A stretch of 64,000 nt of DNA from Octopus vulgaris. Lineage: Eukaryota. Position 1 is the first letter of the stretch; every line of letters starts with the position of its first letter. Under the pieces are notes generated by a model. The model was not told the DNA's origin. It made no database searches and saw only the letters and a program-made list of their open reading frames with translations. Shown here piece after piece: positions 1 through 30,850 of the stretch. Location: assembly GCA_951406725.2 (NCBI GenBank), contig OX597814.1:206708001-206772000 (forward strand). Reading direction: 5' to 3'. The position numbers and the translations under genes are program-made.

Positions 1-1694
1 ACGCTATTACCTTTTGGATTAAAAGTTGCACCAGCAATATTTCAGCAAATCATGGATGCTATGTTATCTGATTGTGAATTTGCTATCCCGTACTCGGTCA
101 ACATTTTGATTAAGAGTAATTCTTGTGAACAGCATGTGGAACACATTAAAGCTATGTTTAAGAAAAGTTTTGGGGTTCACTTTGAGTGAAGAAAAATGCG
201 AATTCTTTCTACCCCACATTAAATACTTTGGGCAAATAGTTGATAAAAGTTGAAGAGATCTTGACCCATCAAGGGCAGACACAATAAGGAATATGCCTTT
301 GCCAACAAATATTCCATCTTTACAAGCATTTCTCAGGTTGGCAAACAATTATCAAAACTACATTCCTAATATGTACAAGTTAAGAACACCATTGAACGAC
401 TTACCAAAAAAAGGGAGTAAAGTGGAATTGTCTCCCTGAATGCCAGAACACTTTTGAAGAAATTGTTAAACATTCTAACCTGAGACCTGTCGTTAGCACC
501 TTACGATCCCAAAATGGACATCATTGCAGTGTTTGATGCTTCCGAGTACTGATGAGATGCAGTTCTACTTCATAAATACGAAGACGGAAGTACAAAACCA
601 GTGGTTCCTGTTTCGAGCTAATAACAGCAGAGGAGAGATATAGTCCAATTGAAAAGGAGACCCTAGCAATTAATTTTGCAGTTAAAAAGGTCCACATGTT
701 TCTGCATGGCAGAAGGTTTTTATTGCAATCAGACCATTTGCTGTCAACTTATGGGTCTAAAAGAGGGTTACTGGCTCATACTGTGATCCGCTTGCAATAT
801 TTGGGTGTAATATTACTAAATTATAATTTCAAAATGAAATCCATTCCAATGAAAAAAATCCTTCCGGAATTAATTAAAAAAATATATAGAACCACTGGAA
901 GAGACTGTTATAGCCACAGTTCTGGCAGAAAGCGAAAGTAAAAGTGTTACGACAAACGTTATCCAAGAACTACCAATGATAGCACAGGATCCAAGAATGA
1001 AAGCTGTAAGTGATGAGTATATTACAGAAATGAAAGAAGCTTTAAAAAATGAACGGAACAAAAATTCAGATGTCAGTAGTTTTTCAATCTGCAATGATAT
1101 TCTGATGTATTCCCAAAGACTGGTGGTTCCAACTTCATTACAGAAATAAAAGGTGTGTTGCAACAATTTCATAGCGGACATCCCGGAATGGCAAGGATGA
1201 AGGGTCTGATGTGGAGTTATATCTATTGATCATGTATGGACTGAGATATCGAAATCTTGTTGAAAACATAGGGAGATTGTGCACTCAAAGCCAAAGCCGA
1301 ACTGGTAAAATATCACTTGTGATCAGAAATGGAGGAGCCATGGTGTAGGCTACACATTGACTATGATGGACTGGTAAATGGTGCTTACTACCTCATCATG
1401 GCAGATAGCTGTACTAAGTGGCCAGAGGTTTGCAGGTGCTATAGACAAACCTCTAAGACAATTATAAGGTTTTTATACAAATTGTTTGTATGATATGGTA
1501 ACCATGACATGCTAGTTTCTGATATTGGGATGCAGTTCTCTGGGTACAAATTCAAGAACTTCTGTAAAAGAGATGAGATAAAGCATATTTTCACTCCACC
1601 CAACTACCTGAGGTCAAGCGGGCAGGTAGAACTCTTTGTGGACACCTTTAAAAGAGTGTTAAGAAAAGCAAGGAATGAATCAAAATGTCATTAA
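1..1694 (+). mobile_element. Decayed Ty3/Gypsy (Mag/K02A2.6-like) pol: RT, RNase H, integrase
   Basis: RLPFGLKVAPAIFQQIMD; RYSPIEKETLAI…FLHGRRFLLQSDH; HSGHPGMARMK; LHIDY…; LVSDIGMQF…SSGQVELFVDTFK. Many stops and frameshifts. Confidence 0.9.
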
Positions 1695-3386
1695 CTGCGG
1701 TTGACCGGTGTGTTTATTCTTCCTGTTTTGGGATGGGGGAAAGCTCAAATGAATTTATTTTTCTGTCAAAAGTTGTTTGCATTTTCCCCGTCACCATTGG
1801 AGAAAGCCGAACAGAACATGGTGAGGCCTATATGTGAAAGAGGGGGAGAGATCGAGGCTCAAATACAAAATGCTTTAGGTTCTGTCTAATGACATACACA
1901 TAAATACATTCTTATATATTTATGATGATGATGATGATTATAAAATTTCAGTAACAGCTTTTGAAAAAATACAATAAAAGTAACGAGAACAGAATGCATC
2001 ATCTTCATCACCATCATCTCCGTCACCACCACCACCACCACCACCACCACCACCCGTGTGCGATAGAATTAGTGGAGTTAGATATTCTATGGCTTGATGC
2101 CTTTCCTGTCACCAACCCTCACCCCATTCCAAGGGAGGTAACTATTTCTGCATCTTAAAGAACATCACAAACTATTAGAAACAAAGGACACTGCTTGCAT
2201 AACAGGGACACTCATTTACAGCTAACAAATAATGTAAAGGCAAGGAGACACACACACATATGTATGAATGGCGTCTCTCATTTACTGCCTACCAGACTCA
2301 ATCACAGAGCTTTGATTGGCCTAAGGCTATAGTTAAAGACACTTGCTCAAGGTGCCATACAGTGAGACTGAACCTAAATCAAGGTAATTAAAAGTAATAG
2401 CAACAGAAGCAGTATTAATACCAAAAGCAATCTTTATATCCAACTAAATGTGGATGTTGTGTTAGAACACCAAATACTGCCTTATTTACCTTGAGAGGAC
2501 CTCTCATATGGACGTACGGTCCATAAATGCATGCAAATTTATATTGTTGGTAGACAACAATCATCTTCTAAAGGCACCAGAACTGCCAGATCACGTATTT
2601 TCGCTCTGCTCAGGTTCATCAGTGACAGACACCCTGTAGCAACATAACAGCCAAATCTCCCTGTCAACGATATATAGACACTGATGTCACAAATAGCCTG
2701 AAGTCTTATTAAAGATAATTAATAGCAACAGAAGCAGTGTTAATACCAAAAGGCATTCTTTATGTCCATATGCTGTAATGAAGAAATTGGGGAAATTCCT
2801 GTCCACTGTAGAACTGTTTTTGAAGTTCTTTCTTTTCCTTTGTCATCTCTCTTATGAATGACCATGATCCTAATTGTTGGACCTCCTCCACCTCCTCCTT
2901 CTTGCTTTTAATATCAAAAAATAATTACCTTGTACTCTGCTTTTGTTGCTCAAATATTCTTGGCTACACAAGATGCACCAAAGAACCTCAACTTCAACAT
3001 TCTTGATAGACATTTCAACAGCAAACACAAGACTCAGCAGTTTTAATGAGAATGGTGAGTGGAGAGAAGAAACAATACAACTTCAGCTACATGAAGACAC
3101 CATTGCCACATGTTTAACTTCACTAACACCACATCAGTGGTCACAGTGGAAGGTTTTTCTGCCACATCCACTGCAATACCATGTCTCCCAGTAGACTGGA
3201 AGGTCGTGGATGGAATATCTTTGATCTGAGTGACAAAGTAATTTTCCTCATTTCCTTATTACTGATTAGAAAGAAATCATTAAATATTTTCAATATTTTG
3301 TTTGTCTTTTGTTAAATTAAATCTCTTCTCTTTAAAAAAAGCAAAAAATTAAACAAAAATGATTCTCATGGTTTTAAATTTTACAG

Positions 3387-3468
3387 AAATTTGAAGAATA
3401 TCTCCAAAATAAAGACGAAAATGAAGGAATGATGGATAAACAGGAAAAGGAAAGATTTCATTCAAAAG
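3387..3468 (+). CDS. Exon A1: last helix of an upstream macrodomain plus linker (KFEEYLQNKDENEGMMDKQEKERFHSK)
   Basis: ttttacag|AAA...TCAAAAG|gtaaac, 82 nt, phase 0 to 1. Paralogous to 16757-16838 and 52358-52412. Confidence 0.8.
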
Positions 3469-3979
3469 GTAAACAATTTGTTTGTTGATATTGAATATTA
3501 TGGTGTTTTGTCATATCGTCTCTATTAAACACTGTTTATTATAAATATGATTAATGTTATTATCATTATTATCATTCCCTGCCGGTGGCACGATAAAAGC
3601 ACCACCCGACTGTTGCCGTTGCCAGCACCGCCCCGACTGGCCTCTGTGCTGGTGGCACATAAAAAGCACCATCCGATCTTGGCCATTGCCAGCCTTGCCT
3701 GGCCCCTGTGCCGGTGGACGTAAAAAGCACCATCTGTCCGTGGCTGTTTGCCAGCCCCGTCTGGCACCTGTGCTGGTGGCACGTAAAAAGCAGCCACTAC
3801 ACTCACGGAGTGGTTGGCGTTAGGAAGGGCATACAGCCATAGAAACACTGCCAGATCAGACTGCGCCTGGTGCAGCCTTCTGGCTTCCCAGACCCCAGTT
3901 GAACAGTCCAACCCATGCTAGCATGGAAAGCGGACACTAAATAATGATGATGATTATTATTAATTATTAATGATTAATG

Positions 3980-4029
<50 letters not shown>

Positions 4030-7000: not shown

Positions 7001-10000
7001 ACTCTGATGAGCACAGTGTTAGATGATATCCTGTGCAAAACTGATTCGTAAGAATGGCTGAAATGGATTTCTAATACTGTATAGTTTTGATGGTAAATTA
7101 CCTACTCTATTAACAAATGTACGAATGCCTGTTTTCCTAGTTGATGGTGTCTTACACTTATTTCTATAGCATCATCATCATTATTTAATGTCCGTCTTTG
7201 ATCTGGCATGGGTTACACAGTTTGACAAGATCTGGTGATCTCTAGAGCTGTGTTAGGTTCCACACTCAGCTGGCTGGCTGAGTGCATCTGGCTGGCTGCG
7301 TGCGGCTGGCTGGCTGAGTGTGGATGGCTGGCTGTCCTTCATAATGCCAACCATTTTACAGTGTGGACTGGAAGCTGCTTTTCTCATGGCACCAGCACTG
7401 GTGAGGTCACCAAGTATCTTGCAAGCCCCCTGATGGAACTGGGGAGTGGGGAGGTGGCTTGATGCCAGGGGTAGAAAGTCTAAAGTTTGCCAGAGAGTTA
7501 AACACATAGATCTAGAGGAGACTCATGGCCTCCTCATATTTATGCAAAGGTGCATGACAGTATCTGGAAGGGAGAAAGATGGTGGTAATAGGGTGCCAGA
7601 GCATAGTCCCAAGTTTGAAGAAGGGGAGTATAAGGGGTCTGTGGATGACGAAAGAAGGAATGGGAGGGTAATGGCATCAGAGTGTGAGATGAGAATAGCA
7701 GAGGTTAGAGATGGGGCTTGAGGTGGTTGTAGAGAGTGAGGAACAATGGTTTGAGGTGGAGTCGAGAGACTGACGGGGCTCGAAAGGAGGAGGTGACAAG
7801 AAGCAGCATAGGAAGGGTGGAGAGCAGCAGAACCATCAATCTGTTGATAGATGAGGAGGAAGAGAGATGATGACCAGGATCTGACGGCAGAGGGAAAGCA
7901 AAGATGATGAAGTGTGAAAGAGATGGGAGTCAGAGATACATGGGGGTGGTTGTAGTGAGTGGGACCAGAAAACTGGAGGGAGTATTAGCAATGGCTGTGA
8001 GAGGGTGTTGAGAATGATTGCAGATAGGAGAAGTGTTCAACAGGAAACCTGGCAGAGTAAGGTGTAGCTAAGAGGGGTGGGTGGGAAAGATTAGGGAAGG
8101 GACAGAAAGGGATGATCGATGGAAGGTTGTATGGATGGAGATGATGATGAAAGAGATGCAACTGGTATTAATGAAAGGGTGGGGGTGGTGATGAATGCTC
8201 TCAAATGGTTACAGCAGTAAAGTAGGACCATAGTTAGAAGAGTATAATAGAGGGGTGTGTGTTAGGAAGATGAGATGTGGTGAAGGGGATGCTTCACAGG
8301 GGCAAATGTGGGCGTAGGGCCCCGCATGGACAGGAATATATATCACAGTTTTTGGACATAACTTTTGCTGTGACAAATGTGTCTTTATATATCATTTTGT
8401 TCAACTTGTGCCAGCATGGACATGAAATGTAGATGGGGATAATGCTGATGATGGCATGCCTATACGTATGTACATCATGATCATCATCATTTAGCATCCA
8501 TTGTCCATGCTGGCATGGGTTGGACGGTTTGACTGGGGCTGGCAAGGTGAGGGGCTACACCAGACTCCAGTCTGACATGGTATGGTTTCTACAGCTGGAT
8601 ACCTTTCCTAACCACCAATGTAATGGCTGCTTTTATTTACCACCAGCATGGATGCTAGATACATGATGCCAGCATCAACCACATGGCCTCTATGAGGCAC
8701 AACCCCCAAATGGTACTTTTTACGTGAGACTGGCATGGCTGGCAGGTAGGTGACACCTACAAAGACCACAGCTATGATTTCATTTGGCTTGATATGTCTT
8801 CTCAAGTATGACATATCGCCAAAGGTCTCGGTCACTAGTCATTGCTTCCATGTGGCCCATCATTTGATGATTATGCTTAAGCACCTCATTCCATGTCTTC
8901 CTGGGCCTCCCTCTTCTACAGCTTCCTCCCACTGGTAGAGATTGGAACTTCTTCAGATGTCGTGTGCAGTTGTCTCTCTTGTACACCACATCTGATGCTT
9001 CTTATGCCCAGCTAAGATATATATATATATATGAATTATCAATATAACATATATCAGAATGAGAAGCACAACCTAAAGAATAGAGCAGACTTTATGATTG
9101 AAAATGTGTATGTTTGTGTGTGTGTATGTATGTATGTTTATATTTGTTTATTTTCAGGAACCAAACCATCAGACCTTCTTAGTCCACAACAGGAATCGTC
9201 CTCTATGACACCCAGAACTAAAGTGACATCCAGAAAATATGATGGCATCAAAATAAAACTAATGATTTAGTCAATTTGGCCTATGTGCACCCCAGACTGG
9301 TAAAGCGTTAAGTGTATGGTTGGCTGGTTTTTGAAGTTACTGTTGCTTATATATATATATATATATATATATATACTGTTGTGTCTCGGGGGAGGGTCAT
9401 TTTCTTTTTGTGCCTTATAATTTTACACACTCACTGGTGAAATGTCCGCTTAATGTAGAAACTGAGAAGAACGTAATGGAGAGCCTCCAGCAAATAGCTA
9501 ACTCCATCCACCAAAGTATCAAGGTAACTATAGATTAAACCCCACTAAGCACCCCAACAATGGACTCCCTGTACTTGATACTGAACTTGGGTTAGAGACT
9601 GTGAACAAAAGAGTGCAGCTCCTCCACTCTTATTACATGGAGCCCGTAACTTCAAACTATGTCGTTCAGAAGAATTCACCTTTCTCACAAAACATGGAAA
9701 TTTAACCATACTGATAGCAGACTTAATTAGAATAATGAACAATGTGTCCCCACTATGCGAACCCTATGAAACGACAAAACACATACAGAACTTCATTCAC
9801 CGCATGCAGTTCTCTGGATATGATCAAAAAGATAGGGTTCGAGTATACAGGGGTGCTAGAAATAAATCTGATAACATTATACGTAATGACACCAGTGGTA
9901 GCTGCCCTAGATATAGAAACAAAGAATGGAATAGGATACAAAGCACTTGTGACAAAGCAAAGAGGGCGAACACGTGGTATAAAAGTGAGAAATATCAAGG

Positions 10001-13000
10001 AGTGATATTAGTAGAGGCCAAATCCCATGGAGAACTAGCCTGTAGATTTAGGGAAGCTCTGAAGGAGACCAAACTCGACATTAAGATTGTTGAAAAGCCA
10101 GGGAACTCCGTCAGATCATAACTATGTAGGATGTACCCCTTTAAGAATACCATATGCACCAATGATAACTGCATGGTATGTAGGATTAGCCCTGGCATTA
10201 ACTGTAGAACTCGAAATGTAGTTTACAGCATAGGATGCTTAGAAGGTACTTGTAAAGACATGAACATGACTTACATAGGGGAGACATCTAGGAGCATAGC
10301 TGAAAGACTAAATGAACATTTGAGACAATATGACAACAAAAAGCAGTCCTCCATACTTTACCAACATCCCAAAGACCACCGTAGAGGCAACTTGGGTCAA
10401 CTTGACATCCGCATCTCATCCAAGCAATCAAAAGACCCAACACTCAGACAAATACGGGAGTACGTCCTTATAAATGAAACTTTCCTAATACTAAATAGGA
10501 AATATACATCGTAGATACCATACGCCCATACCCACAGTGTACACAGGTAGAGTAGAATAGTTAGTGGGCTGTTATGTAGATAGATGTATGTATGTGTGTG
10601 TGTGTGGTTACATATGTGTATATGCACATGTATGTAAGCATATGGATATGAGAATAAACAGATCAACATACAGATGGATAGGTACATAGGTTATATGAAC
10701 AAACAAGCACACATACACAAATGGATACTGAAACACAAGAACATATGTACACACACGCTTTACTCCACACAAGGACACATATGGAGATACGTGTCCACAC
10801 ATATAGAGATGCACATCCATACATACAAACATGGTACAAAGTGGCAAAACACACACACACACACACACACACAATGAGACAGAGGTGCATATATACACAA
10901 ACACACTCACACACACATACACAAAACATACGCAGACACGGACATGCAAGCACATGAATATGCAGATTACATACATACAGATGCACACACATACATACAT
11001 ATATACATATGCATACACACACACATGCATGCATAGACACACACACACACTGACCCACACACATGCGCACAAACAAACAAAAAGGAATGCAGTGTAAATA
11101 ACGGACAGAGTCAAGACTATTGAAAAGGTTGCAAGATGCAACGAAAATTTTAAGAAAAAAAAATGAGAAATAAGTGGAAATTTTTGGCAGTGAGTGTGTT
11201 AAATTATAAGGCACGAAAAGAAAATGACTCTCCCCAGACACAACAGAATATGCTTCAACACACAAACTCACATAAAGAATCTTGCAAACCAAATCCAAAC
11301 ATGAAATACATATACGGACGTTAAGTGATGATGACATATGTGTGTGTGTGTGTGTGTGTGTATAAAGTGTACATATGTTGATATTTGTTTATTTTTTTCA
11401 GACACCACATCATCAAACACATCTCTTCCTGGCTCGCAAAAGGAAACCTCTTCTGTGGCACCCAGACCTAATGAGACACCCAGAGAAAATGATGGCATCA
11501 AAATACAACTATTGATTGATTCAATTTCTAATGCATCTGTGAGTAAATAGATTCACTTAACATATTTACCTTTAATTGTTATTTCATTTTCAACTGAGGA
11601 CTCATTACAGTTAATTAAAACATTTTCTCAATCAAACTCAAACATTTTATTTCCTTCACATCTGATATCTTGAGTATATCTTTTGCTAACTTTAACAACC
11701 TCAAACTTACTACAGCCATTCTGAAAGAGCCTTTCTTAACAACAACATCAACTGCAACAATGTATCTCTTTTCTCTCCATGGAATATTCCTTTGCTGTTT
11801 ACCATTAATTACTTTTCTAGGTTGATGTCATCGTTAACAGCACCAATAGAAGCCTCCGGCTTAACATTGGTGCTATCTCCAAATCTATTCTCAATGCTGC
11901 TGGTCCACAGATACAAGATGAATGTAACCAGAAATTTCGTCGAAGTATTTCTACATCTGAAATTGCCATCACTAAAGGATATAAGCTCAACTGTAAGAAT
12001 GTATTTCATCTGGTATTACCTGGCTGGTATGAATATCATTCTGATTCAGTAAGTATCAATCATATTATATTGATTTATTGAAAGAGTTAATGTTTGAAGG
12101 GAACCTTATGCATGTTGTGTGAGAATCATAAAGCAAATGTCAGCATCCTGTTTAATATTTGTTCTTCCAAGTTATCATTGGAAGGAAGCAGAAGATATCG
12201 ATGAACAGGACACTTTTATATATAAATAGAAGGAAAAAAGCCTCATGGCCTAACAACAGTTATGTGACTGATAAATAAGACTATATTAAAACATATTTCT
12301 GTGTTTTACTCTCTGTATTGGTGAGTTTTTCTCTGTCATGGCACGAGCACTAGAGAGGTTGTCATGTCCTCAACAACACTAAAGACTCCTCTTGGGTCTG
12401 CATTGTCTCTCTTCATTCACCAACCATTTTACACGGTGGATGGGGTCTGTTTAATTGTAGCAGCATCATGAGTGAGGTTGCCTTGTCTCTTGCAGGACGA
12501 AAGAGTGATAGGAATGACAGATGTGTTTAGAAGTGGTAGGAGTGAGAGGAGTTGTGAGAGGAGGATATATTTATTACAACTTAATGGTTTCTTCCTGTAA
12601 TTAGGAAAATAATTTAATAAAATGTTCATTATCAATTACTAAACACTTATTTTTTTAGATTCTGGCAAACTTGACTCGAATAATAACCACTTGTCTGGAA
12701 ACTGCTGAGAGAATGGGAGCAAAAAGCCTGGCATTTCCTATATTAGGGGCTGAAATGAAATACCCCATTGGAAAACTACCCAGAACAATGTATGAAGCAG
12801 TGAAAAACTACTCAGATCAAAATTCAAGCCAGATCAAAGATGTTTACTTTGTTGTTTTACCTGAAGAAGACAGAGAAATAGCAAAGGTTGGTTGATGTTT
12901 TTGTTGTTTGTTGTTTGATGTTGATATTTTTGGAATTTACCAAAAGCATATTCTGCAAAAAATGAAGAAAATAGAAACAAGAATCTGGAATCATTTTATA

Positions 13001-16000: not shown

Positions 16001-17411
16001 CATAACAGCGAAATCTCCCTGTCAACGATATATAGACAGTGATGTCACAAATAGCCTGAAGGCTTATTAAAGATAATTAATAGCAACAGAAGCAGTGTTA
16101 ATACCAAAAGGCATTCTTTATGTCCATATGCTGTAATGAAGAAATTAGGGAAATTCCTGTCCACTGTAGAACTGTTTTAGAAGTTCTTTCTTTTTGAATC
16201 TTTTCTCTTTTCCTTTGTCATCTCTCTTATGAATGACCATGATCCTAATTGTTGGACCTCCTCCTTCTCCTTCTTGCTTACAATATGAAAATAATTACCT
16301 TGTTCTCTGCTTTTGTTCCTCAAATATTCTTGGCTACACAAGATGCACCAAAGAACCTCAACTTCAACATTCTTGATAGACATTTCAACAGCAAACACAA
16401 GACTCAGCAGTTTTAATCAGAATGGTGATTGGAGAGAAGAAACAATACAACTTCAGCTACATGAAGACACCTTTGCCACATGTTTAACTTCACTAACACC
16501 ACATCAGTGGTCAGTGTGGAAGGTTTTTCTGCCACATCCACTATAATACCATGTCTCCCAGTAGACTGGAAGGTCGTGGATGGAATATCTTTGATCTGAG
16601 TGACAAAGTAATTTTCCTCATTTCCTTATTACTGATTAGAAAGAAATCATTAATATTTCAAATATTTTGTTTGTCTTTTGTTAAATTGAATCTCTTCTCT
16701 TTAAAAAAAGCAAAAAAATTAAACAAAAATGATTCTCATGGTTTTGAATTTTACAGAAATTTGAGGAATATCTCCAAAATAAAGACGAAAATGAAGGAAT
16801 GATGGATAAACAGGAAAATGAAGGATTTCATTCAAAAGGTAAACAATTTGTTTGTTGATATTGAATATTATGGTGTTTTGTCATACCGTCTCTATTAAAC
16901 ACTGTTTATTATAAATATGATTAATGTTAATATCATTATTATCATTCTGTGCCAGTGGCACATAAAAAGCACCACCCGACTGTGGCCGTTGCCAGCACCA
17001 CCCGACTAGCCTCAGTGCTGGTGGCACGTAAAAAGCACCATCCGATCGTGGCTGTTGCCAGCTTCACCTGGCCCCCGTGCCGGTGGACGTAAGAAGCACC
17101 ATCCGTCCATGACCGTTTGCCAGCCCCGTCTGGCATCTGTCCCGGTGGCACATAAAAAGCACCATCCGATCGTGGCCGTTGCCAGCCCCGTCTGGCACCT
17201 GTGCCGGTGGCACGTAAAAAGCACCCACTACACTCACTGGAGTGGTTGGCGTTAGGAAGGGCATCCAGCCATAGAAACACTGCCAGATCAGACTGCGCCT
17301 GGTGCAGCCTTCTGGCTTCCCAGACCCCAGTTGAACGGTCCAACCCATGCTAGCATGGAAAGCGGACACTAAATAATGATGATGATTATTATTAATTATT
17401 AATGATTAATG

Positions 17412-17455
<44 letters not shown>

Positions 17456-20400
17456 TATTATTATGATTGCTATTATTGTTATAGATGTGCACAGTATACA
17501 ATATCGTGAGATTGTTGATCGAAGATATTGTGTCTACTCGGGGTTTGCAGTGTTTGTCAAGTCACAAGAAGGACCTCAGGCAGACAATACTTTACACAAT
17601 TCCAAGTAATGCTGACTTTTGCAATACATCTAGATTGCGGAGTATCTCTAAGGACTTCAGATGTTTTTTTTCAGTTTGGATCGTATTGAACCCAATACTC
17701 CGATGACAATAGGGATAACCTTTATGTTTGACTCTTGTACCTGCCACAACTTAGCAATCTCAATTCTCAGGTTTCCATATTTATCAACCTTTTTCTCTTT
17801 ATTTCATGATGATGTGTTGATCTCCTGGCCCTGCCAAATCGATTATTTGGCACTTTTGTTTGTCCCTTCTAAAGGTTTCTATATCTGGCCTTCAGTTCTC
17901 TAACACTTTGTCTGTCTGGAAATCAAAGTCCCAGAGGATTTTTGCCTTCCCCTTTTCGTTCATTACTTTTTTTGGTGTATGTTGGTACCAAGCACCCATA
18001 ACCTCATATCCATACTTATGGCATAGTAGCCAGTGGAGGTTTTCGGCTACTTTGTCGTGTCTACGCTTGAACTCTTCCTGCGCAAGACTTTCTCAAGCAC
18101 TACTTTCGGCCCTCTTCCCACACATTCTGCAGAGATCCGTTGCACTTGTGTGGTATATATTCTTTTCCACTGAGTCCTGGGCCCAAATGATTAGGCTTTC
18201 AGTATTTTTCATTAGGTCACCCTTGTTGAGCCATTCTATGATGCTTCTTTGTCTTTTAATTTGTTGGTTCCACAGTGGAACTGACCATGTAATTCCATAC
18301 GGAGTAGGGTTTCTTCTCTCTCGTCGGCTGTTCGTGATCAGAATTCATGTTTACCCTCAAGTTCCTGTGCTATCAGAATAGTAGCAGTTGTAGTATTTGT
18401 AGTATTAGCAGCTGCAGTATCTTATCATTATTTTTCTTTTTATCATTGTCACCATCACCACCACTACAACTCTGCATGTTTCTAGTAATCCCCTATGTCA
18501 GTACAAATCTGATTTATCCTCAACTGTAGGGATTTGAGATTTGACCAAATTGTATGCTGTGGATGATCGGTGGTGGGAGTAAATGTGGGATGACATAGGC
18601 TTGCAAAGTAACTCTGTCACTATTCTGCCTCCAGAAAACTTAACTTTTGTGTCCAAATAATCAATGCTAGTTTTTGAAAAACTAGACGTAAATTTTATGT
18701 TGGACTTAAAGCCAGTTTTTAGCATAACAGTCACAGAAATGCAAGAATTTAATTAAACTATCTGGCAATCCATCCCAAGCAAAATGACGTCATTTTAGTT
18801 TTCCCACATGTGTAGCCTTTAGGGGCCATTCTGGTAATTGTTTGGGCTAAAAAACAAAGTCTTAAAAGCAACAACAACTTCAACAATAGTGCATGTGAGG
18901 CCTAGGAAAGCGATTTTGCCTTGCTTCTGTTATCCCATTTCACCATCACAGGAACAAAAGAAATTAATGAGAAAAAGTGACAACAACAGCAAGAAAACAG
19001 CTGCCATGCTGGTGGCAGCAGCAGCAGCAGGTTTGCCAGTACCACTGCCAACATCATCATCATCATCGTTTAACATCTGTTTTCTAAGCATGCATGGATT
19101 GGACAGTTGACAGGAGCCGGAAAGGTGGAAAATAACTACCCTTCACTACTGTGTCTGTTTTGGCAGGAATTTTACAGCTGGATGCACTTCCTAACACCAA
19201 CCACTCAGCAGAGTGGACTCAGTACATTTTACGTGGAACTAGCACAACAAAGTTAGTTTTGGCATTATTTTTGCAGCTAGATGCCCTTCCAAATGCAAGC
19301 CATTTCACAATGTGCAGTGGATGCTTTTTACATGGCACCAGTGCTGGCAGGGTCACCAAGATAATGAATTATGAGAGGGGCAAGGCATTTGATGAGGAGA
19401 GCTTGTGTCAGATGATGAAAGGTTAGAGTGTGACAGAGAGACAGAAAGAGGGGTCTTGCCATAACAGAGAGGGCATTGGAGGTGGTGATCCAGTAGTAGA
19501 TGATGAAATGTTAGAGTGTGACAGAGAGACAGAAAGAGGGGTCTTGCCATAACAGAGAGGGCATTGGAGGAGGTGATCCAGTAGTAGATGATGAAAGGTT
19601 AGAGTGTGACAGAGAGACAGAAAGAGGGGTCTTGCCATAACAGAGAGGGCATTGGAGGTGGTGATCCAGTAGTAGATGATGAAAGGTTGAGTGTGACAGA
19701 GAGACAGAAAGAGGGGTCTTGCCATAACAGAGAGGGCATTGGAGGAGGTGATCCAGTAGTAGATGATGAAATGTTAGAGTGTGACAGAGAGACAGAAAGA
19801 GGGGTCTTGCCATAACAGAGAGGGCATTGGAGGAGGTGATCCAGTAGTAGATGATGAAATGTTAGAGTGTGACAGAGAGACAGAAAGAGGGTCTTGCCAT
19901 AACAGAGAGGGCATTGGAGAAGGTGATCCAGTAGTAGATGATGAAAGGTTAGAGTGTGACAGAGAGACAGAAAGAGGTGTCTTGCCATAACAGAGAGGGC
20001 ATTGGAGGAGGTGATCCAGTAGTAGATGATGAAATGTTAGAGTGTGACAGAGAGACAGAAAGAGGGGTCTTGCCATAACAGAGAAGGCATTGGAGGAGGT
20101 GATCCAGTTGTAGATGATGAAATGTTAGAGTGTGACAGAGAGACAGAAAGAGGGGTCTTGCCATAACAGAGAGGGCATTGGAGGTGGTGATCCAGTAGTA
20201 GATGATGAAATGTTAGAGTGTGACAGAGAGACAGAAAGAGGGGTCTTGCCATTACAGAGAGGGCATTGGAGGAGGTGATCCAGTAGTAGATGATGAAATG
20301 TTAGAGTGTGACAGAGAGACAGAAAGAGGGGTCTTGCCATAGCAGAGAGGGCATTGGAGGAGGTGATCCAGTAGTAGATGATGAAATGTTAGAGTGTGAC

Positions 20401-23400
20401 AGAGAGACAGAAAGAGGGGTCTTGCCATAACAGAGAGGGCATTGGAGGAGGTGATCCAGTAGTAGATGATGAAATGTTAGAGTGTGACAGAGAGACAGAA
20501 AGAGGGGTCTTGCCATAACAGAGAGGGCATTGGAGGTGGTGATCCAGTAGTAGATGATGAAATGTTAGAGTGTGACAGAGAGACAGAAAGAGGGGTCTTG
20601 CCATAGCAGAGAGGGCATTGGAGGAGGTGATCCAGTAGTAGATGATGAAATGTTAGAGTGTGACAGAGAGACAGAAAGAGGGGTCTTGCCATAACAGAGA
20701 GGGCATTGGAGGTGGTGATCCAGTAGTAGATGATGAAATGTTAGAGTGTGACAGAGAGACAGAAAGAGGGTCTTGCCATAACAGAGAGGGCATTGGAGGT
20801 GGTGATCCAGTAGTAGATGATGAAATGTTAGAGTGTGACAGAGAGACAGAAAGAGGGGTCTTGCCATAACAGAGAGGGCATTGGAGGAGGTGATCCAGTA
20901 GTAGATGATGAAATGTTAGAGTGGGACAGAGAGACAGAAAGAGGGGTCTTGCCATAACAGAGAGGGCATTGGAGGAGGTGATCCAGTAGTAGATGATGAA
21001 ATGTTAGAGTGTGACAGAGAGACAGAAAGAGGGGTCTTGCCATAACAGAGAGGGCATTGGAGGAGGTGATCCAGTTGTAGATGATGAAATGTTAGAGTGT
21101 GACAGAGAGACAGAAAGAGGGGTCTTTCCATAACAGAGAGGGCATTGGAGGTGGTGATCCAGTAGTAGATGATGAAATGTTAGAGTGTGACAGAGAGACA
21201 GAAAGAGGGGTCTTTCCATAACAGAGAGGCATTGGAGGTGGTGATCCAGTAGTAGATGATGAAATGTTAGAGTGTGACAGAGAGACAGAGAGAGGGGTCT
21301 TCCATACAGAGAGGGCATTGGAGGTGATCCATAGTAGATGATGAAATGTTAGAGGGCAGAGAGACAGAAAGAGGCCATTGGAGGTGGTGATCCAGTAGTA
21401 GATGATGAAATGTTAGAGTGTGACAGAGAGACAGAAAGAGGGGTCTTGCCATAACAGGAGGGGCATTGGAGGAGGTGATCCAGTAGTAGATGATGAAATG
21501 TTAGAGTGTGACAGAGAGACAGAAAGAGGGGTCTTGCCATAACAGAGAGGGCATTGGAGGTGGTGATCCAGTAGTAGATGATGAAATGTTAGAGTGTGAC
21601 AGAGAGAGGGCATTGGAGACAGAAGATGAGAAATGTTAGAGTGTCTTGCCATAGCAGAGAGGGCATTGGAGGAGGTGATCCAGTAGTAGATGATGAAATG
21701 TTAGAGTGTGTCAGAGAGACAGAAAGAGGGGTCTTGCCATAACAGAGAGGGCATTGGAGGTGGTGATCCAGTAGTAGATGATGAAATGTTAGAGTGTCAC
21801 AGAGAGACAGAAAGAGGGTCTTGCCATAACAGAGAGGGCATTGGAGGTGGTGATCCAGTAGTAGATGATGAAATGTTAGAGTGTGACAGAGAGACAGAAA
21901 GAGGGGTCTTGCCATAACAGAGAGGGCATTGGAGGTGGTGATCCAGTAGTAGATGATGAAATGTTAGAGTGTGACAGAGAGACAGAAAGAGGGGTCTTGC
22001 CATAACAGAGAGGGCATTGGAGGTGGTGATCCAGTAGTAGATGATGAAATGTTAGAGTGTGACAGAGAGACAGAAAGAGGGGTCTTGCCATAACAGAGAG
22101 GGCATTGGAGGTGGTGATCCAGTAGTAGATGATGAAATGTTAGAGTGTGACAGAGAGACAGAAAGAGGGTCTTGCCATAACAGAGAGGGCATTGGAGGTG
22201 GTGATCCAGTAGTAGATGATGAAATGTTAGAGTGTGACAGAGAGACAGAAAGAGGGGTCTTGCCATAGCAGAGAGGGCATTGGAGGAGGTGATCCAGTAG
22301 TAGATGATGAAATGTTAGAGTGTGACAGAGAGACAGAAAGAGGGGTCTTGCCATAACAGAGAGGGCATTGGAGGAGGTGATCCAGTAGTAGATGATGAAA
22401 TGTTAGAGTGTGACAGAGAGACAGAAAGAGGGGTCTTGCCATAACAGAGAGGGCATTGGAGGAGGTGATCCAGTTGTAGATGATGAAATGTTAGAGTGTG
22501 ACAGAGAGACAGAAAGAGGGGTCTTGCCATAACAGAGAGGGCATTGGAGGTGGTGATCTAGTAGTAGATGATGAAATGTTAGAGTGTGACAGAGAGACAG
22601 AAAGAGGGGTCTTGCCATAACAGAGAGGTCATTGGAGGTGGTGATCCAGTAGTAGATGATGAAATGTTAGAGTGTGACAGAGAGACAGAAAGAGGGGTCT
22701 TGCCATAGCAGAGAGGGCATTGGAGGAGGTGATCCAGTAGTAGATGATGAAATGTTAGAGTGTGACAGAGAGACAGAAAGAGGCGTCTTGCCATAACAGA
22801 GAGGGCATTGGAGGTGGTGATCCAGTAGTAGATGATGAAATGTTAGAGTGTGACAGAGAGACAGAAAGAGGGGTCTTGCCATAGCAGAGAGGGCATTGGA
22901 GGAGGTGATCCAGTAGTAGATGATGAAATGTTAGAGTGTGTCAGAGAGACAGAAAGAGGGGTCTTGCCATAACAGAGAGGGCATTGGAGGTGGTGATCCA
23001 GTAGTAGATGATGAAATGTTAGAGTGTGACAGAGAGACAGAAAGAGGGTCTTGCCATAACAGAGAGGGCATTGGAGGTGGTGATCCAGTAGTAGATGATG
23101 AAATGTTAGAGTGTGACAGAGAGACAGAAAGAGGGGTCTTGCCATAGCAGAGAGGGCATTGGAGGAGGTGATCCAGTAGTAGATGATGAAATGTTAGAGT
23201 GTGACAGAGAGACAGAAAGAGGGGTCTTGCCATAACAGAGAGGGCATTGGAGGTGGTGATCCAGTAGTAGATGATGAAATGTTAGAGTGTGATAGAGAGA
23301 CAGAAAGAGGGTCTTGCCATAACAGAGAGGGCATTGGAGGTGGTGATCCAGTAGTAGATGATGAAATGTTAGAGTGTGACAGAGAGACAGAAAGAGGGGT

Positions 23401-25522
23401 CTTGCCATAGCAGAGAGGGCATTGGAGGAGGTGATCCAGTAGTAGATGATGAAATGTTAGAGTGTGACGGAGAAATAAAGAAGCAGAGAGAGATGTCTTG
23501 ATATAGAGGAGAGACATGGTTACCGAGGGACAGAGAAAGAGGTACGCTAAAGAGGCCATAAATTGGTGTGCTGGAGTGAAGGAGGTATTTGGTTACCTAG
23601 GCAGAGGAAAAACAAGAGGAGAGAGAGAGAGAGAAAATGAGGAAGAATGAGACATGCAAATCTAGTCGTAACAATTTCAACTTTGCAAGAGTAACCACAG
23701 AATTAAGTGAAGACATTTTTTATCGATGGAAATGAATTCAAGAGTGCAAAATGTAACAGAAAAATGGTATTAAACATTCATTGAACTGGCCCCGCAAAAA
23801 ATTAATTTGTGGACAGTTCTATATAAAACAACTGAAGTCAAAAGTAGGGAAGTGGAGCAGGCAACACAGCAGCAAATAGAGAAATACCTAGAAGCAGTTT
23901 AGAAAAGCAAAGCCTACGTAGCCAGGTTAAAGAAAGAAATATGGGACTGTCAAAGTGCGGTCTGTCTCAGAGGAGGAGACCAAAAATAACTGGACGGCCA
24001 TCCTAGCAAGGGACAAACACATTGTCATCCCCATCTACTTTGGTCGAAGAATATTCAGAGTTAGAATACTCAACATAATGCCAACCATTTTAGAGTGTGG
24101 ACTGGAAGCTGCTTTTCTCATGGCACCAGCACTGGTGAGGTTACCAAGTATCTTGCAAGCCCCCTGATGGAACTGGGGAGTGGGGAGGTGGCTTGAGGCC
24201 AGGGCTAGAAAGTCTAAATTTTGCCAGAGGCTTAAGCACATAGATCTAGAGGAGACTCATGGCGTCCTTATATTTATGCAAAGGTGCATGACAGTATCTG
24301 GAAGGAAGGAAAGATGGTGTTAATAGAGTGCCAGAGCATAGTCCCAAGTTACAAGAAGGGGAGTATAAGGGAGACTGTGGATGAGTAAAGAAGGAATGGG
24401 AGGGTAATGGCATCAGAGTGTGAGATGAAAAGTGCAGAGGTTAGAGATGGGGCTTGAGGTGGTTGTAGAGAGTGAGGAACAATGTTTTGAGGTGGAGTCG
24501 AGAGACTGACGGGGCTCGGAAAGGAGGAGGTGACAAGAAGCCTCAGAGGAAGGGTGGAGAGCAGCAGAATCATCAATCTGTTGATAGATGAGGAGGAAGA
24601 GAGATGAAGACCAGGATCTGACAGCAGAGGGAAAGCAAAGATGATGAACTGTGAAAGAATGGGAGTCAGAGATACATGGGGGTGGCTGTAGTGAGTGGGG
24701 CCAGAAAACTGGAGGGAGTATTAGCAATGACTGTGAGAGGGTGTTGAGAATGATTGCAGATAGGAGAAGTGTTCAACAGGAAACCTGGCAGAGTAAGGTG
24801 TAGCTAAGAGGGGTGGGTGGGAAAGATTAGGGAAGGGACAGAAAGGGATGATCGATGGAAGGTTGTATGGATGGAGATGATGATGAAAGAGATGCAACTG
24901 GTATTAATGAAAGGGTGGGGGTGATGATGAATGCTCTCAAATGGTTACAGCAGTAAAGTAGGACCATAGTTAGAAGAGTATAATAGAGGGATGGGTGTTA
25001 GGAAGATGAGATGTGGTGAAGGGGATGCTTCACAGGGACAGATATGGGCGTAAGGCCCAGCATGGACAGGAATATATATCACAGTTTTTGGACATGACTT
25101 TTGCTGTGAGAAATGTGTCTTTATATATCATTTTGTTCAACTTATGCCAGCATGGACATGAAATGTAGATGGGGATAATGCTGATGATGGCATGCCTATA
25201 CGTATGTACATCATGATCATCATCATTTAGCATCCATTGTCCATGCTGGCATGGGTTGGACGGTTTAACTGGGGCTGGCAAGGTGAGGGGCTACACCATC
25301 TCCAGTCTGACATGGTATGGTTTCTACAGCCGGATACCTTTCCTAACCACCAATGTAATGGCTGCTTTTATTTACCACCAGCATGGATGCTAGATACATG
25401 ATGCCAGCATCAACCACATGGCCTCTGTATGGCTCAACACCCAAATGGTACTTTTTACGTGACAATGGCATGGCTGGTAAAGCGTTACGTGTATGGTTGG
25501 CTGGTTTTTTAAGTTACTGTTG

Positions 25523-25603
<81 letters not shown>

Positions 25604-28600
25604 TGTTGTGTCTGGGGGGAGGGTCATTTTCTTTTTGTGCCTTATAATTTTACACACTCACCGGTGAAATGTCCGCTTAATGTAGAAACTGTGAAGAACG
25701 TAATGGAGAGCCTCCAGCAAATAGCTAACTCCATCCACCAAAGTATCAAGGTAACTATAGATTAAACCCCACTAAGCACCCCAACAATGGACTCCCTGTA
25801 CTTGATACTGAACTTGGGTTAGAGACTGTGAACAAAAGAGTGCAGCTCCTCCACTCTTATTACATGGAACCCATAACTTCAAACTATGTCGTTCACAAGA
25901 ACTCACCTTTCTCACACAACATGGAAATTTAACCATACTGATAGCAGATTTAATTAGAATAATGAACAATGTGTCCCCACTATGCGAACCCTATGAAACG
26001 ACAAAACACATACAGAACTTTATGCACCGCATGCAGTTCTCTGGATATGATCAAAAAGATAGGGTTCGAGTGTACAGGGGTGGAAGAAATAAATCTGATA
26101 ACATTATATACGTAATGATACCAGTGGTACCTGCCCTAGATATAGAAACAAAGAATGGAATAGGATACAAAGCACTTGTGACAAAGGAAACAGGGTGAAC
26201 ACATGGTATAAAAGTGAGAAATATCAAGGAGTGATGTTTGTAGAGGCCAAATCCCATGGAGAACTAGCCTGTAGATTTAGGAAAGCTCTGAAGGAGACCA
26301 AACTCGACATTAAGATTTTTGAAAAGCCAGGGAACTCCGTCAGATCATAACTATGTAGGACGTACCCCTTTAAGAATACCATATGCACCAATGATAACTG
26401 CATGGTATGTAGGATTAGCCCTGGCATTAACTGTAGAACTCGGAATGTAGTTTACAGCATATGATGCTTAGAAGGTGCTTGTAAAGACATAAACATGACG
26501 TACATAGGGGAGACATCTAGGAGCATAGCTGAAAGACTAAATGAACATTTGAAACAATATGACAAAAAAAAGCGGTCCTCCATACTCTACCAACATCCCA
26601 ATGACTACCATAGAGGTAACTTGGGTCAACTTGACATCCGCACCTCATCCAAGCAATCAAAAGACCCAACACTCAGACAAATACGGGAGTACGTCCTTAT
26701 AAATGAAACTTTCCTAATACTAAATAGGAAATATACATGGTAGATACCATACGCCCATACCCACAGTTTACACAGGTAGAGTAGAATAGTTAGTGGGCTG
26801 TTATGTAGATAGATGTATGTATGTGTGTGTGTGTGGGTACATATGTGTATATGCACATGTATGTAAGCATATGGATATGAAAATAAACAGATCAACATAC
26901 AGATGGATAGGTACATAGGTTATATGAACAAACAGGCACACATACACAAATGGATACTGAAACACAAGAACATATGTACACACACGCTTTACTCCACACA
27001 AGGACACATATGGAGATACGTGTCCACACATATAAAGATGCACATCCATACATACAAACATGGTACAAAGTGGCAAAACACACACACACACACACACACA
27101 CAAGGAGACACAGGTGCATATATACACAAACACACATGCACAAACACGGACATGCAAGCACATGAATATGCAGATTACATACATACAGATGCACTCACAT
27201 ACATACATATATACATATGCATACACACATGTATACATACACACATGCATACATACACACACACATGCATGCATAGACACACACACACACTGACCCACAC
27301 ACATGCGCACAAACAAACAAAAAGGAACGCAGTGTAAATAACGGACAGAGTGAAGACTATTGAAAAGGTTGCAAGATGCAACGAAAATTTTAAGAAAATA
27401 AAAATGAGAAATAAGTGGAAATTTTTGGCAGTGAGTGTTTTAAATTATAAGGCACCAAAAGAATATGACTCTCCCCAGACACAACAGAATATGCTTCAAC
27501 ACAAACTCACATAAAGAATCTTGCAAACCAAATCCAAACATGAAATACATATACGGACGTTAAATGATGATGATGATGATGATGATGATGATATATATCT
27601 TTGTGAGTGTGTGTGTGTGTGTATAAAGTGTACATATGTTGATATTTGTTTATTATTTTCAGACACCACATCATCAAACACATCTCTTCATGGCTCGCAA
27701 AAGGAAACCTCTTCTGTGGCACCCAGAACCTAATGAGACATCCAGAGAAAATGATGGCATCAAAATACAACTATTGATTGATTCAATTTCTAATGCATCT
27801 GTGAGTAAATAGATTCACTTAACATATTTACCTTTAATTGTTATTTCATTTGCAAATGAGGAATCATTACAGTTAATTAAAATATTTTCTCAATCAAACT
27901 CAAACATTTTATTTCCTTCACATCTGATATCTTGAGTATATCTTTTGCTAACTTTAACAACCTCAAACTTACTACAGCCATTCTGAAAGAGCCTTTCTTA
28001 GCAACAATATCAACTGCAACAATGTATCTCTCTTCTCTCCATGGAATGTTCCTTAGTTGTTTACCATTAATTACTTTTGTAGGTTGATGTCATCGTTAAC
28101 AGCACCAATAAAAGCCTCCAGCTTAACATTGGTGCTATCTCCAAATCTATTCTCAATGCTGCTGGTCCACAGATACAATATGAATGTAACCAGAAATCTC
28201 GTCAAAGTATTTCTGCATCTGAAATAGCCATCACTAAGGGATATAACCTCAACTGTAAGAATGTATTTCATCTGGTATTACCTTACTGGAATGAATATTA
28301 TTCTGATTCAGTAAGTATCAATCATATGATATTGATTTATTGAAAGAGTTAATGTTTGAAGGGAACCTTATGCATGTTGTGTGAGAATCATAAAGCAAAT
28401 GTCAGCATCCTGTTTAATATTTGTTCTTCCAAGTTATCATTGGAAGGAAGCAGAAGATATCGATGAACAGGACACTTTTATATATAAATAGAAGGAAAAA
28501 AGCCTCATGGCCTAACAACAGTTATGCGACTGATAAATAAGACTATATTAAAACATATTTCTGTGTTTTACTGTCTGTATTGGTGAGTTTTTCTCTGTCA

Positions 28601-30850
28601 TGGCACGAGCACTAAAGAGGTTGTCATGTCCTCAACAACACTAAAGACTCCTCTTGGGTCTGCATTGTCTCTCTTCATTCACCAACCATTTTACACGGTG
28701 GATTGGGTCTGTTTTATTGTAGCAGCATCATGAGTGAGGTTGCCTTGTCCCTTGCAGGACTAAAGAGTGATAGGAATGACAGTTGTGTTTAGAAGTGGTA
28801 GGAGTGAGAGGAGTTGTGAGAGGAGGATATATTTATTACAACTTAATTGTTTCTTCCTGTAATAAGAAAATAATTTAATAAAATGTTCATTATCAATTAC
28901 TAAACACTTATTTTTATTAGATTCTGGCAAACTTGACTCGAATAATAACCACTTGTCTGGAAAATGCTGAGAGAATGGGAGCAAAAAGTCTTGCATTTCC
29001 TATATTAGGAGCTGGGTTATTGAAGTACCCTGTTGAAGAACTACCTAGAACTATGTTTGAAGCCGTGAAAAACTACTCAAACCAAAATCCAAACCAGATC
29101 AAAGACGTTTGCTTTGTGGTTTATCCTCAAGACACAGAAGTAGTAAAGGTTGGTTGATGTATTTGTTGTTTGTTGTTTGATGTTGATATTCTTGGAATTT
29201 ACCAAAAACCAATATTCTACAATAAACAAAGGAAAATAGAAATGATCCCTCATTTACAGCCCTTGTTCCATTTTTCATGGGTGCAACATTTTGACTGGCT
29301 CCAAAGAGCCACAAGGGTTTATTGAACCCCAGTGTCTGCTTTGGCATGGTTTCTATGGCTGGATGCCATTCCTAATGCCAACCACTTCACAGCATGTCCT
29401 GGGTACCTTTCTTCATGCTACCTTTAATGCTGTTCATTATATCTTGTTGTGCTTTATCCTTTCATTATACCATTTCCCATCACCAAATTCTTGCTTCTGA
29501 AATATTGCATTGTAACATTTGAAGCTAAAAATGTTTTGCTTGTTGTTGTTGTTGTTGTTGTATTTATTGTTGGACCCTGAGTCAGTTCTGATTCTGCAGA
29601 CTGAAGGTCAAAGATGCTTGTATGTCTTTCTTCTCTTCTTTTCTTTCCATTCCTCCTCCTCCTCCCTCCTCCCCCTCCTATTCCTAGCTGCCACAACCAA
29701 GATCCATTTCACAAATGCCAAACCAGTTACCTCTGTCCCCCTTCCCCCTTTCTCTCCGTTTCTGGTTCTGGGACTCTTGCAATAACATCAGTTGTAATTG
29801 GGTGGAACTTTCTCCCTATCCAAGTATGGAAATCTCCAAAATCTAACATCTGATATGGTCAACAGTTCAGCAAAATAGCCTTGGTCAGCAAACCCTATAC
29901 TTTATTGAGCATCAAAAGCCAAAATGGATGGAATATGTCCACAAATTTCCTCTTTGGTCCAGTGCCCTTTAAAAAGCCTGGTGAATTTACCATCAAGGTG
30001 ATGTTGAAGCTCTTTACACTTGACCCTGACAAGCCTTGTCCACTTTGAAATATTCAATTTCCAGATGTTCTGAAGAATGTTTCAAGTAATCCAAGTTGTT
30101 TCCATTGTGCATGAAGAAGTCCCAAATAAAGACCCAAGATACATTCTCTAGCTAAGACTTCCCACATTTATTCACAAAACACTATAAGGTAGCAAGGTAT
30201 GATGTGAGAGAGATTTGGCTGTTAATTTTAGCAGATCAAGTGACCACTTAAAGACCTCTTTCTTTGCTTCTTCTTGCAACTGTTCTTCATTCCCATGCAG
30301 TCAGTTATTAGTGTGAGGTAATATTTATCCCCGTTTAAACAAGGATGTTCCCTGAGAACCAACTTTACTATGGTAATTGCCATGAGAGAAACCCTCACAG
30401 GCTTTTTGGAATGCCCTCTTCTTCATATCAGTAGCAAAAAGATAAATCTTCAGCACCAAGGCCACCAGTTCATGTGATTTCCACCTTGTTTGAACTTATC
30501 GATGATGGACAATCGACTGCTAGAGACAGCAGTAATTCATCTCCCCTCCAGCGTTATATAGATTGACACTCCCTAGTGCTCATGTGTCCATCATTGACAA
30601 GGTCCAAACAAGGTGGATATTATGTGATCTTGTTGTCCCAGTGCTGGAGGTAGTAGGGAATTATCTTGCCCCAAAAATCCAATGTTAGGGTTTAGCTCAT
30701 GGCATCTACCACAGTAAAGTTTGTACTAACAGGACACCCATGCTTAAGTGGGGATGAAATATTGCATCTCTTGGCTTTACTACTGCCTCTGTCACTAATG
30801 TGCTTATGCATCAAATTTCTTTAGAGATGTGTAAACAAATATTAACACCT

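What the first reader, a model, noticed from the sequence alone, without database searches (positions are those of the whole stretch)
1647..29245. Macro-PARP gaining macrodomains by recent intragenic duplication of a phase-symmetric four-exon cassette
Seen: exons A-B-C-D and their introns occur twice at about 97% identity, and a third A-type exon (KFEEY) at 52358 closes the last domain. The cassette starts and ends in phase 0, so copies can be added or lost in frame. Exon A1 implies at least one more macrodomain upstream. Known: vertebrate PARP9/14/15 are interferon-linked and rapidly evolving, with 2-3 macrodomains. Inference: an accordion-like ADP-ribose reader array in an invertebrate immune gene.
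Basis: partly seen in the sequence, partly recalled or inferred. Interest (0 to 1): 0.75.

Follow-up and report, generated by a model that had tools for sequence, protein, structure and literature searches.

The report
Octopus PARP14 with eight macrodomains
An octopus relative of the antiviral gene PARP14 carries eight ADP-ribose-type binding domains instead of the usual three; seven are near-copies that differ mostly in one fast-changing exon, and six carry a change predicted to block ADP-ribose binding, so the array likely works as a variable recognition or decoy surface against pathogens.

Summary
The duplication is real and larger than reported. The window holds the last two of seven tandem macrodomain units of a 185-kb octopus PARP14-like gene (RRM, one hydrolase-type macrodomain, seven macrodomain-2-type units, PARP domain, no WWE found). 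The Octopus sinensis orthologue has five units, so this is no haplotype artefact; RNA contigs show the splice joints. The array is older than 97% identity implies, since three exon-C types are shared between species. Exon C differs 9.2% between units against 1-4% in introns, mostly by amino-acid changes, in a patchwork. Six of seven units have Glu in place of the loop-2 Gly (the MacroD2 G188E position), so 'reader array' is doubtful. One extra base breaks exon B of unit 7 in the assembly, probably a consensus error; an assembly gap leaves the exact unit count open. Recent macrodomain duplications also occur in other animals. This scan already reported the upstream part of the same gene twice (e1-9517876, e1-9537684). 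New variant of a known kind.

The parts
1..1680 (+). Decayed Gypsy-like LTR retroelement remnant in the D-A intron after unit 5; the same remnant lacks about 2 kb after unit 6, which makes the apparent border at 1647/15020
   Evidence: unit 5 aligns to units 1 and 4 through 1647; to units 2, 3, 6 with a gap at -415..1647. The Gypsy label is my reading of the RT/RNaseH/integrase-like translations, no family search
3387..3468 (+). Exon A closing unit 5 (last helix of the macrodomain plus linker), phase 0 to 1
   Evidence: RNA joints A>B and D>A
9158..9300 (+). Decayed older copy of exon B (stop codon, no donor), present in 5 of the 6 A-B introns
11402..11538 (+). Exon B of unit 6 (linker and first two strands), 137 nt
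   Evidence: RNA contig with 0 differences over 11400-11522 (X17 record 13)
11821..12048 (+). Exon C of unit 6: hypervariable exon with loop 1 of the macrodomain
   Evidence: Pfam Macro E 3.9e-12
12659..12886 (+). Exon D of unit 6 with the altered loop 2 (GAEMK)
16757..16838 (+). Exon A closing unit 6
19410..23473 (.). 88-bp satellite array (46 copies) in the A-B intron; present before units 2, 3, 5, 7, absent before 4 and 6
27663..27800 (+). Exon B of unit 7, 138 nt in the assembly: one extra base near 27727 shifts the frame; probably a consensus error
28083..28310 (+). Exon C of unit 7
   Evidence: B>C and C>D joints
28921..29148 (+). Exon D of unit 7, ancestral third-domain type with intact loop 2 (GAGLLKY)
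   Evidence: Pfam Macro; 7.4% from the neighbour gene's third domain, 18.2% from its second
52358..52412 (+). Last A-type exon (55 nt) closing unit 7
   Evidence: RNA loose end after D7 reads into this exon in X17
60785..60918 (+). First PARP-domain exon
61309..61486 (+). PARP-domain exon with the His of the catalytic triad (LWHGT)
   Evidence: Pfam PARP E 6.6e-4
63508..63770 (+). Last PARP-domain exon with Tyr (GVYFA) and Ile at the third triad position, stop codon
   Evidence: Pfam PARP E 4.1e-8; alignment to human PARP14

Best explanation
This is the 3' part of an expressed octopus PARP14-like gene whose macrodomain-2-type domain is repeated seven times, likely by unequal crossing-over between its ancestral second and third domains, and whose repeats likely serve as a diversifying recognition or decoy array rather than plain ADP-ribose readers. 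Shown: 36 exons over 185 kb, about 2,480 aa, RRM region, one macrodomain with hydrolase motifs, seven 225-aa units, PARP domain; chimeric make-up of the units; excess amino-acid change and patchwork in exon C; Gly-to-Glu plus a one-residue loss in loop 2 of units 1-6. Inferred: crossing-over inside the shared exon B-D core sets copy number and keeps register; conversion keeps introns and exon D alike and remixes exon C; selection keeps exon C different; the variable surface round loop 1 meets pathogen proteins (targets or antagonists), and the PARP domain then mono-ADP-ribosylates bound partners while macrodomain 1 erases and unit 7 may still read ADP-ribose.
For: Seven B-C-D-A sets plus an upstream different macrodomain; all inner exons AG/GT, one frame break only. 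Neighbour paralogue has three domains; its second matches B5' of unit 1 (6.8% vs 26-27% for units 2-7) and D3' of units 1-6 (4.3-7.4%), its third matches B5' of units 2-7 (6.8-10.8%) and D3' of unit 7 (7.4%). O. sinensis orthologue XP_029633854.1 has five units with the same first/last asymmetry; three of its five exon-C types are 3, 5 and 6 aa from units 3, 6, 4 against 12-22 aa among its own units. Exon C 9.2% vs introns 3.7, 2.4, 1.2%; distinct nonsynonymous letters 51/175 vs 64/840 intron sites, p 2.5e-13, vs synonymous 7/53, p 0.02; M2a over M1a p 3.4e-5; 57 of 136 informative site pairs four-gamete incompatible; 59 of 77 amino-acid states at variable sites also occur in paralogues. Loop-2 Gly aligns to the G of GIY in Af1521 and of GTG in PARP14 macro2; MacroD2 G188E loses ADP-ribose affinity (bioRxiv 10.1101/2021.05.08.443251, one passage). 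RNA-type contigs: B>C and D>A joints in 4 of 4 runs, A>B in 3 of 4. Two-unit paralogue model (first unit GAEMK type) folds as two macrodomains, pLDDT 86, best single-domain match PARP14 macro2, rmsd 1.5 A.
Against: The assembled reading frame breaks in exon B7 (stop at aa 2094 of 2478); contigs lacking the extra base make up 354 of 392 (X1), 112 of 133 (X2), 26 of 35 (X12), 540 of 540 (X17) of depth, so the rest is unexplained. The synonymous test loses significance without the end units (p 0.08 and 0.13) and M0 omega 1.9 is not significant (p 0.057); site models are inflated by recombination and one parameter hit its bound. Introns are a poor neutral yardstick: across the family they differ by only 3-4%, also around PARP exons. 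The loop-1 glycine equal to PARP14 G1044 is invariant in 50 of 50 intact exon C copies, which suggests a pocket still in use. GAEMK/GAKMK is in 15 of 42 family D exons, so it predates the array. No binding, infection or knock-down data; no single molecule spans two units.
Confidence: 0.62

Rival explanations
1. Avidity reader array: the repeats still bind mono-ADP-ribosylated proteins, and more copies raise avidity; exon C variation tunes sequence context of the modified site.
For: Fold is that of the reader domain PARP14 macro2; G1044-equivalent and the first Asn are invariant in 50 of 50; variable sites lie in loop 1 and the loop after the HLxLP strand.
Against: Units 1-6 have Glu for the loop-2 Gly and a loop one residue shorter, the position whose Glu mutant loses affinity in MacroD2.
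Confidence: 0.22
2. Neutral slippage: the array grows by unequal crossing-over without benefit, and exon C differs only because old paralogous patches are imported by gene conversion under relaxed constraint.
For: 59 of 77 states are shared with paralogues; synonymous sites in exon C are also somewhat raised (0.13 vs 0.076); family-wide pN/pS in exon C is only about 1.2; frame breaks in B7 and in the neighbour's last exon.
Against: pN exceeds pS within the array (0.104 vs 0.053); 25 of 76 codons are invariant in 50 copies and none of the 50 has a stop; 18 states are private to the array; types persist across species.
Confidence: 0.1
3. Assembly inflation: the true gene has fewer units and haplotypes were stacked.
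For: A 100-N gap lies between units 1 and 2 with a 5.1-kb, 97.3% repeat on both sides and a spare A exon; intron differences of 0.5-2% approach the 1.22% heterozygosity given for O. vulgaris (PMC10700109, passage).
Against: Units 2-7 and the PARP exons lie in one gap-free stretch; all seven exon C differ by 4.8-11.8%; an independent species assembly has five units with matching types. The gap may as well hide units, since its flanks differ as much as paralogous units do.
Confidence: 0.06

Closest known systems
Vertebrate and ancestral metazoan PARP14 (Delgado-Rodriguez et al. 2023, PMC10221186, passages and section 14 read; Dukic et al. 2023, PMC10499325, passages read)
   Same: RRM region, hydrolase-type macrodomain 1 first, non-catalytic macrodomains next, mono-ART-type PARP domain last.
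   Different: Eight macrodomains instead of three; all seven repeats are macro2-like, none macro3-like; no WWE found; repeats are near-copies; six lack the loop-2 glycine.
Primate PARP9/14/15 under positive selection (Daugherty et al. 2014, PMC4038475, passages read)
   Same: Positive selection in macrodomains and in the PARP domain, gene birth and loss.
   Different: There selection is between species on old, dissimilar domains; here it is between near-identical units of one gene with exchange between units and a change in unit number.
Octopus sinensis RefSeq XP_029633854.1 and isoforms (annotated PARP14/PARP15)
   Same: Orthologue: first exon B and last exon A 100% identical, same unit design.
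   Different: Five units in another order of exon-C types; automatic annotation only, one unit modelled without exon D.
Podospora HNWD WD40 repeat arrays (PMC2873952, abstract and passages read)
   Same: Works alike: variable repeat number, concerted evolution within and between loci, positive selection on a few interaction positions, chimeric units from unequal crossing-over.
   Different: Unrelated proteins; HNWD repeats are 40-aa blades with shown recognition function, here whole 225-aa four-exon domains with untested function.

Membership tests
PARP14-like macroPARP | C-terminal PARP (ART) domain of mono-ART type | tested here: met
   Pfam PARP on two window exons; H, Y and Ile at the place of human PARP14 Leu (triad rule recalled)
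PARP14-like macroPARP | Macrodomain 1 with hydrolase motifs (Asn, loop-1 Gly-Gly, hydrophobic-aromatic in loop 2) | tested here: met
   NAAN..RGGVA and STG-IY in upstream exons against the criteria in PMC10221186 section 14; activity not assayed
PARP14-like macroPARP | Macrodomain 2 | tested here: met
   phmmer to 3q71 E 1.3e-24; Foldseek of a paralogue model, 3q71 rmsd 1.5 A
PARP14-like macroPARP | Three macrodomains including a distinct macrodomain 3 | tested here: not met
   Eight domains; last unit matches human macro2 better than macro3 (E 3.5e-6 vs 0.42)
PARP14-like macroPARP | N-terminal RRM domains | tested here: met
   Upstream exons 80-84% identical to the part of P0008 that hits RRM_PARP14; the exons themselves were not scanned
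PARP14-like macroPARP | KH domains | tested here: inconclusive
   A 1,329-nt exon lies at the expected place, no Pfam KH hit in P0008 or P0009
PARP14-like macroPARP | WWE domain before the PARP domain | tested here: not met
   No match of paralogue linker regions in window 29149-60784 (best E 0.08); orthologue joins last A exon to PARP
PARP14-like macroPARP | Interferon or infection induction, antiviral function | not testable with these tools
   Only a proteomics mention of an octopus PARP14-like protein in skin mucus was found (PMC11431876, passages)
ADP-ribose-reading macrodomain (units 1-6) | Loop-1 glycine (PARP14 G1044) | tested here: met
   Invariant in 50 of 50 exon C copies; numbering inferred from the alignment and the mutants named
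ADP-ribose-reading macrodomain (units 1-6) | Loop-2 glycine that clamps the diphosphate | tested here: not met
   Glu and a one-residue shorter loop in 6 of 7 units; binding itself not measured

The most novel reading that the evidence does not exclude
Octopuses have turned a PARP14 reader domain into an ADP-ribose-blind, hypervariable recognition module: about 50 units in some 17 genes swap exon-C patches and change unit number by germline recombination, giving an intracellular repertoire of pathogen sensors or decoys wired to a mono-ADP-ribosyltransferase, an animal counterpart of fungal HNWD and plant NLR arrays.
Probability: 0.27. Interest if true: 0.78.

Novelty: new variant of a known kind. 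Interest (0 to 1): 0.52.

Why it matters
PARP14's three-macrodomain plan is described as ancestral and stable in animals. An eight-domain version whose repeats diversify against each other shows that domain number and surface can themselves be the object of an arms race, and points at candidate sites and seven natural variants for finding the unknown pathogen factors that drive macro-PARP evolution. Cephalopod antiviral immunity is little known; this family of about 17 genes is a concrete candidate. Weight is limited because function is untested, similar duplications occur in other animals, and the scan has already noted this gene.

Tried and rejected
Genome search with Pfam PARP missed this family's short exons (9 hits elsewhere); exon-based search found 17. 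Single-sequence fold failed (pLDDT 38); the window's own spliced protein was not folded, only an O. sinensis paralogue. No RNA holder was listed as RNA on record; runs X12-X19 are guessed RNA, and contig depth gives no copy number. Idea that introns B-C and C-D are special homology arms for exon C: weakened, as the PARP intron is also only 4.3% different (8 of 17 paralogues with comparable length) and exon P2 also has more nonsynonymous change. RNA-editing duplex as cause of intron conservation: no inverted match better than E 0.39, no A>G excess in X17. Simple dimeric higher-order repeat: satellite and Gypsy-deletion markers occur in all four combinations over six introns. Intron C-D tree (36 of 51 units) is unresolved and does not group the array. 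Paper search for G188E/G270E/G130V together gave nothing. Exon skipping as rescue of B7: skipping B alone is out of frame.
Full report
Observation. A self-comparison gives blocks 1647-5862, 7340-8742 and 9348-12977 matching 15020-19217, 24074-25477 and 25575-29242 at 93.9-95.9%. The four exons exist with canonical splice sites and add to 675 nt, phase 0 at both ends. Copy against copy, exons A, B, C and D are 96.3, 98.5, 94.3 and 87.6% identical. Exon B of the second copy has 138 nt and runs into stops.

The whole gene. The window is G000:C1:206,708,001-206,772,000 in a 2.8-Gb genome; the neighbouring gene matches an Octopus vulgaris protein at 98-100%. With 140 kb upstream, seven B-C-D sets appear, the window holding units 6 and 7. 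Further up are RRM-type exons, a 1,329-nt exon and a different macrodomain with NAAN, GG and GIY motifs. The model has 36 exons over 185,029 bases, every inner exon AG/GT, about 2,477 aa, and one break, in exon B7. The start codon was not located. No WWE or linker exon was found between unit 7 and the PARP exons. A 100-N gap lies between units 1 and 2, with a 5.1-kb stretch repeated on both sides at 97.3% and a spare A exon; units 2-7 and the PARP exons are gap-free.

Is it real? The O. sinensis RefSeq orthologue has macrodomain 1 and five units (six Pfam Macro stretches). Contigs of guessed-RNA runs show B>C and D>A joints in 4 of 4 runs and A>B in 3 of 4, C>D and unit 7 D to the last A exon in X17. 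Most joints could also come from the neighbour gene, but one X17 contig matches exon B6 with no difference over 123 nt and continues into exon A, while the neighbour's B5' differs by 10.8%. The extra base in B7 equals both variants of the other units written one after the other, and most contig depth lacks it (354/392, 112/133, 26/35, 540/540). I read it as a consensus error, not proven.

How it arose. The neighbour on the minus strand has three macrodomains. Its second domain resembles exon B5' of unit 1 and exon D3' of units 1-6; its third resembles B5' of units 2-7 and D3' of unit 7. Unit 1 differs from units 2-6 by 31% in B5' and 53% upstream, unit 7 by 17-18% in D3' and 21% downstream, but both by only 1-7% in the introns between. 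That is the pattern expected when the old second and third domains pair out of register and cross over in their shared B-D core (inference). The border at 1647 is a 2-kb deletion in a shared retroelement remnant, present after units 2, 3 and 6 and absent after 1, 4 and 5. Three of five O. sinensis exon-C types have a close partner here (3, 5, 6 aa apart, against 12-22 among its own units), in another order, while three of its B exons share a species-specific LST motif. The two species are said to have split 2.5 million years ago (PMC10700109, passage). So the array is older than its introns look and is being homogenised.

Selection. Mean difference between units: exon C 9.2%, introns 3.7, 2.4 and 1.2%; pN 0.104, pS 0.053; exon D of units 1-6 pN 0.025, pS 0.028. 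Counting distinct letters, which needs no tree: 51/175 nonsynonymous, 7/53 synonymous (p 0.02), 64/840 intron (p 2.5e-13); without the end units the synonymous test gives p 0.08-0.13. My own M1a/M2a fit gave p 3.4e-5, M0 omega 1.9 with p 0.057. Recombination is evident (57 of 136 pairs incompatible) and inflates such tests. The genome has 17 copies of the PARP exon and 51 of exon C (lower bounds); 50 of 51 are full length and open. By position, other genes hold one to four such units. The same codons vary family-wide (p 8e-4), and 59 of 77 states in the array occur in other genes. Control: PARP exon P2 also shows excess nonsynonymous change (54/140 vs 6/38, p 0.011) and its intron differs by 4.3%, so fast protein change is a family trait.

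Domain anatomy. The repeats match human PARP14 macrodomain 2. A model of a two-unit O. sinensis paralogue gives two confident domains and a disordered linker, closest to 3q71. By its secondary structure, variable codons fall in loop 1 (10-16), helix 1, helix 2 and the following loop (29-42) and the loop at 66-73; distances to the pocket could not be measured. The G1044-equivalent is invariant, but the loop-2 Gly is Glu with one residue lost in units 1-6 and intact in unit 7. MacroD2 G188E, the same position by the GIY motif, loses affinity (bioRxiv 10.1101/2021.05.08.443251, one passage); the loop's role at the phosphates is described in PMC10802294 (passages). This state is in 15 of 42 family D exons examined (9 of 51 units had D beyond the fetched range).

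Against the known. PMC10221186 calls three macrodomains plus PARP the ancestral plan; PMC4038475 reports selection on macro-PARP macrodomain surfaces and proposes escape from viral antagonists. Among the best 150 hits of a full search of 1.84 billion representatives, the 144 not seen before had 1-6 macrodomains by my profile (94 with three; 19, 2 and 1 with four, five, six), and 12 had two domains at least 60% alike. Ten looked up are from scallop, brittle star, cod, whelk, sea star, oyster, mussel, argonaut and abalone; Pfam counts fewer domains in three of them. So young macrodomain duplication recurs in animals; eight is the most seen here. Searches found no paper on octopus macro-PARP arrays; subscription papers and supplements were not seen, and the supplement of PMC10221186 may list these proteins. 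The mode of evolution parallels Podospora HNWD repeats. Two earlier scan notes cover the upstream part of this same gene and reach similar readings; they are not independent support.

Verdict. New variant of a known kind; interest 0.52.

Noticed in passing
G000:C1:206,808,634 and 16 paralogues; window 61309-61486: The PARP exon carrying the catalytic His has excess nonsynonymous change across 17 paralogues (54/140 vs 6/38, p 0.011), mostly just after HGT.
   Followed up: partly
G000:C1:206,805,200-206,805,500 (L018): The neighbouring three-macrodomain paralogue has a one-base loss in its last PARP exon in the assembly; error or pseudogene not decided.
   Followed up: partly
G000:C1:216.28-216.33 Mb and 5.39-5.41 Mb: Macrodomain-1-type exons occur three and two times in a row ahead of one PARP exon, so the hydrolase domain may be duplicated too, or these are gene fragments.
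   Followed up: no
P0001, P0003-P0006, P0039, P0040: O. sinensis RefSeq isoforms differ by whole units, either real unit skipping or mis-mapped reads among repeats.
   Followed up: no
P0002 (XP_036364520.1): A second O. sinensis gene has five such units, an independent expansion, with a longer linker before PARP.
   Followed up: partly
P0061 (XP_072026037.1, Amphiura filiformis): Five macrodomains fused to a Deltex C-terminal domain, recalling the PARP9/DTX3L pair in one chain.
   Followed up: no
window 31878-32879 (+): Open frame of 334 codons that reads like a mariner-type transposase (label from recall) in the intron after unit 7.
   Followed up: no
window 38740-40324, 43595-44191, 9486-10328, 50440-51272: Decayed non-LTR retroelement reverse-transcriptase fragments (class not tested).
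   Followed up: no
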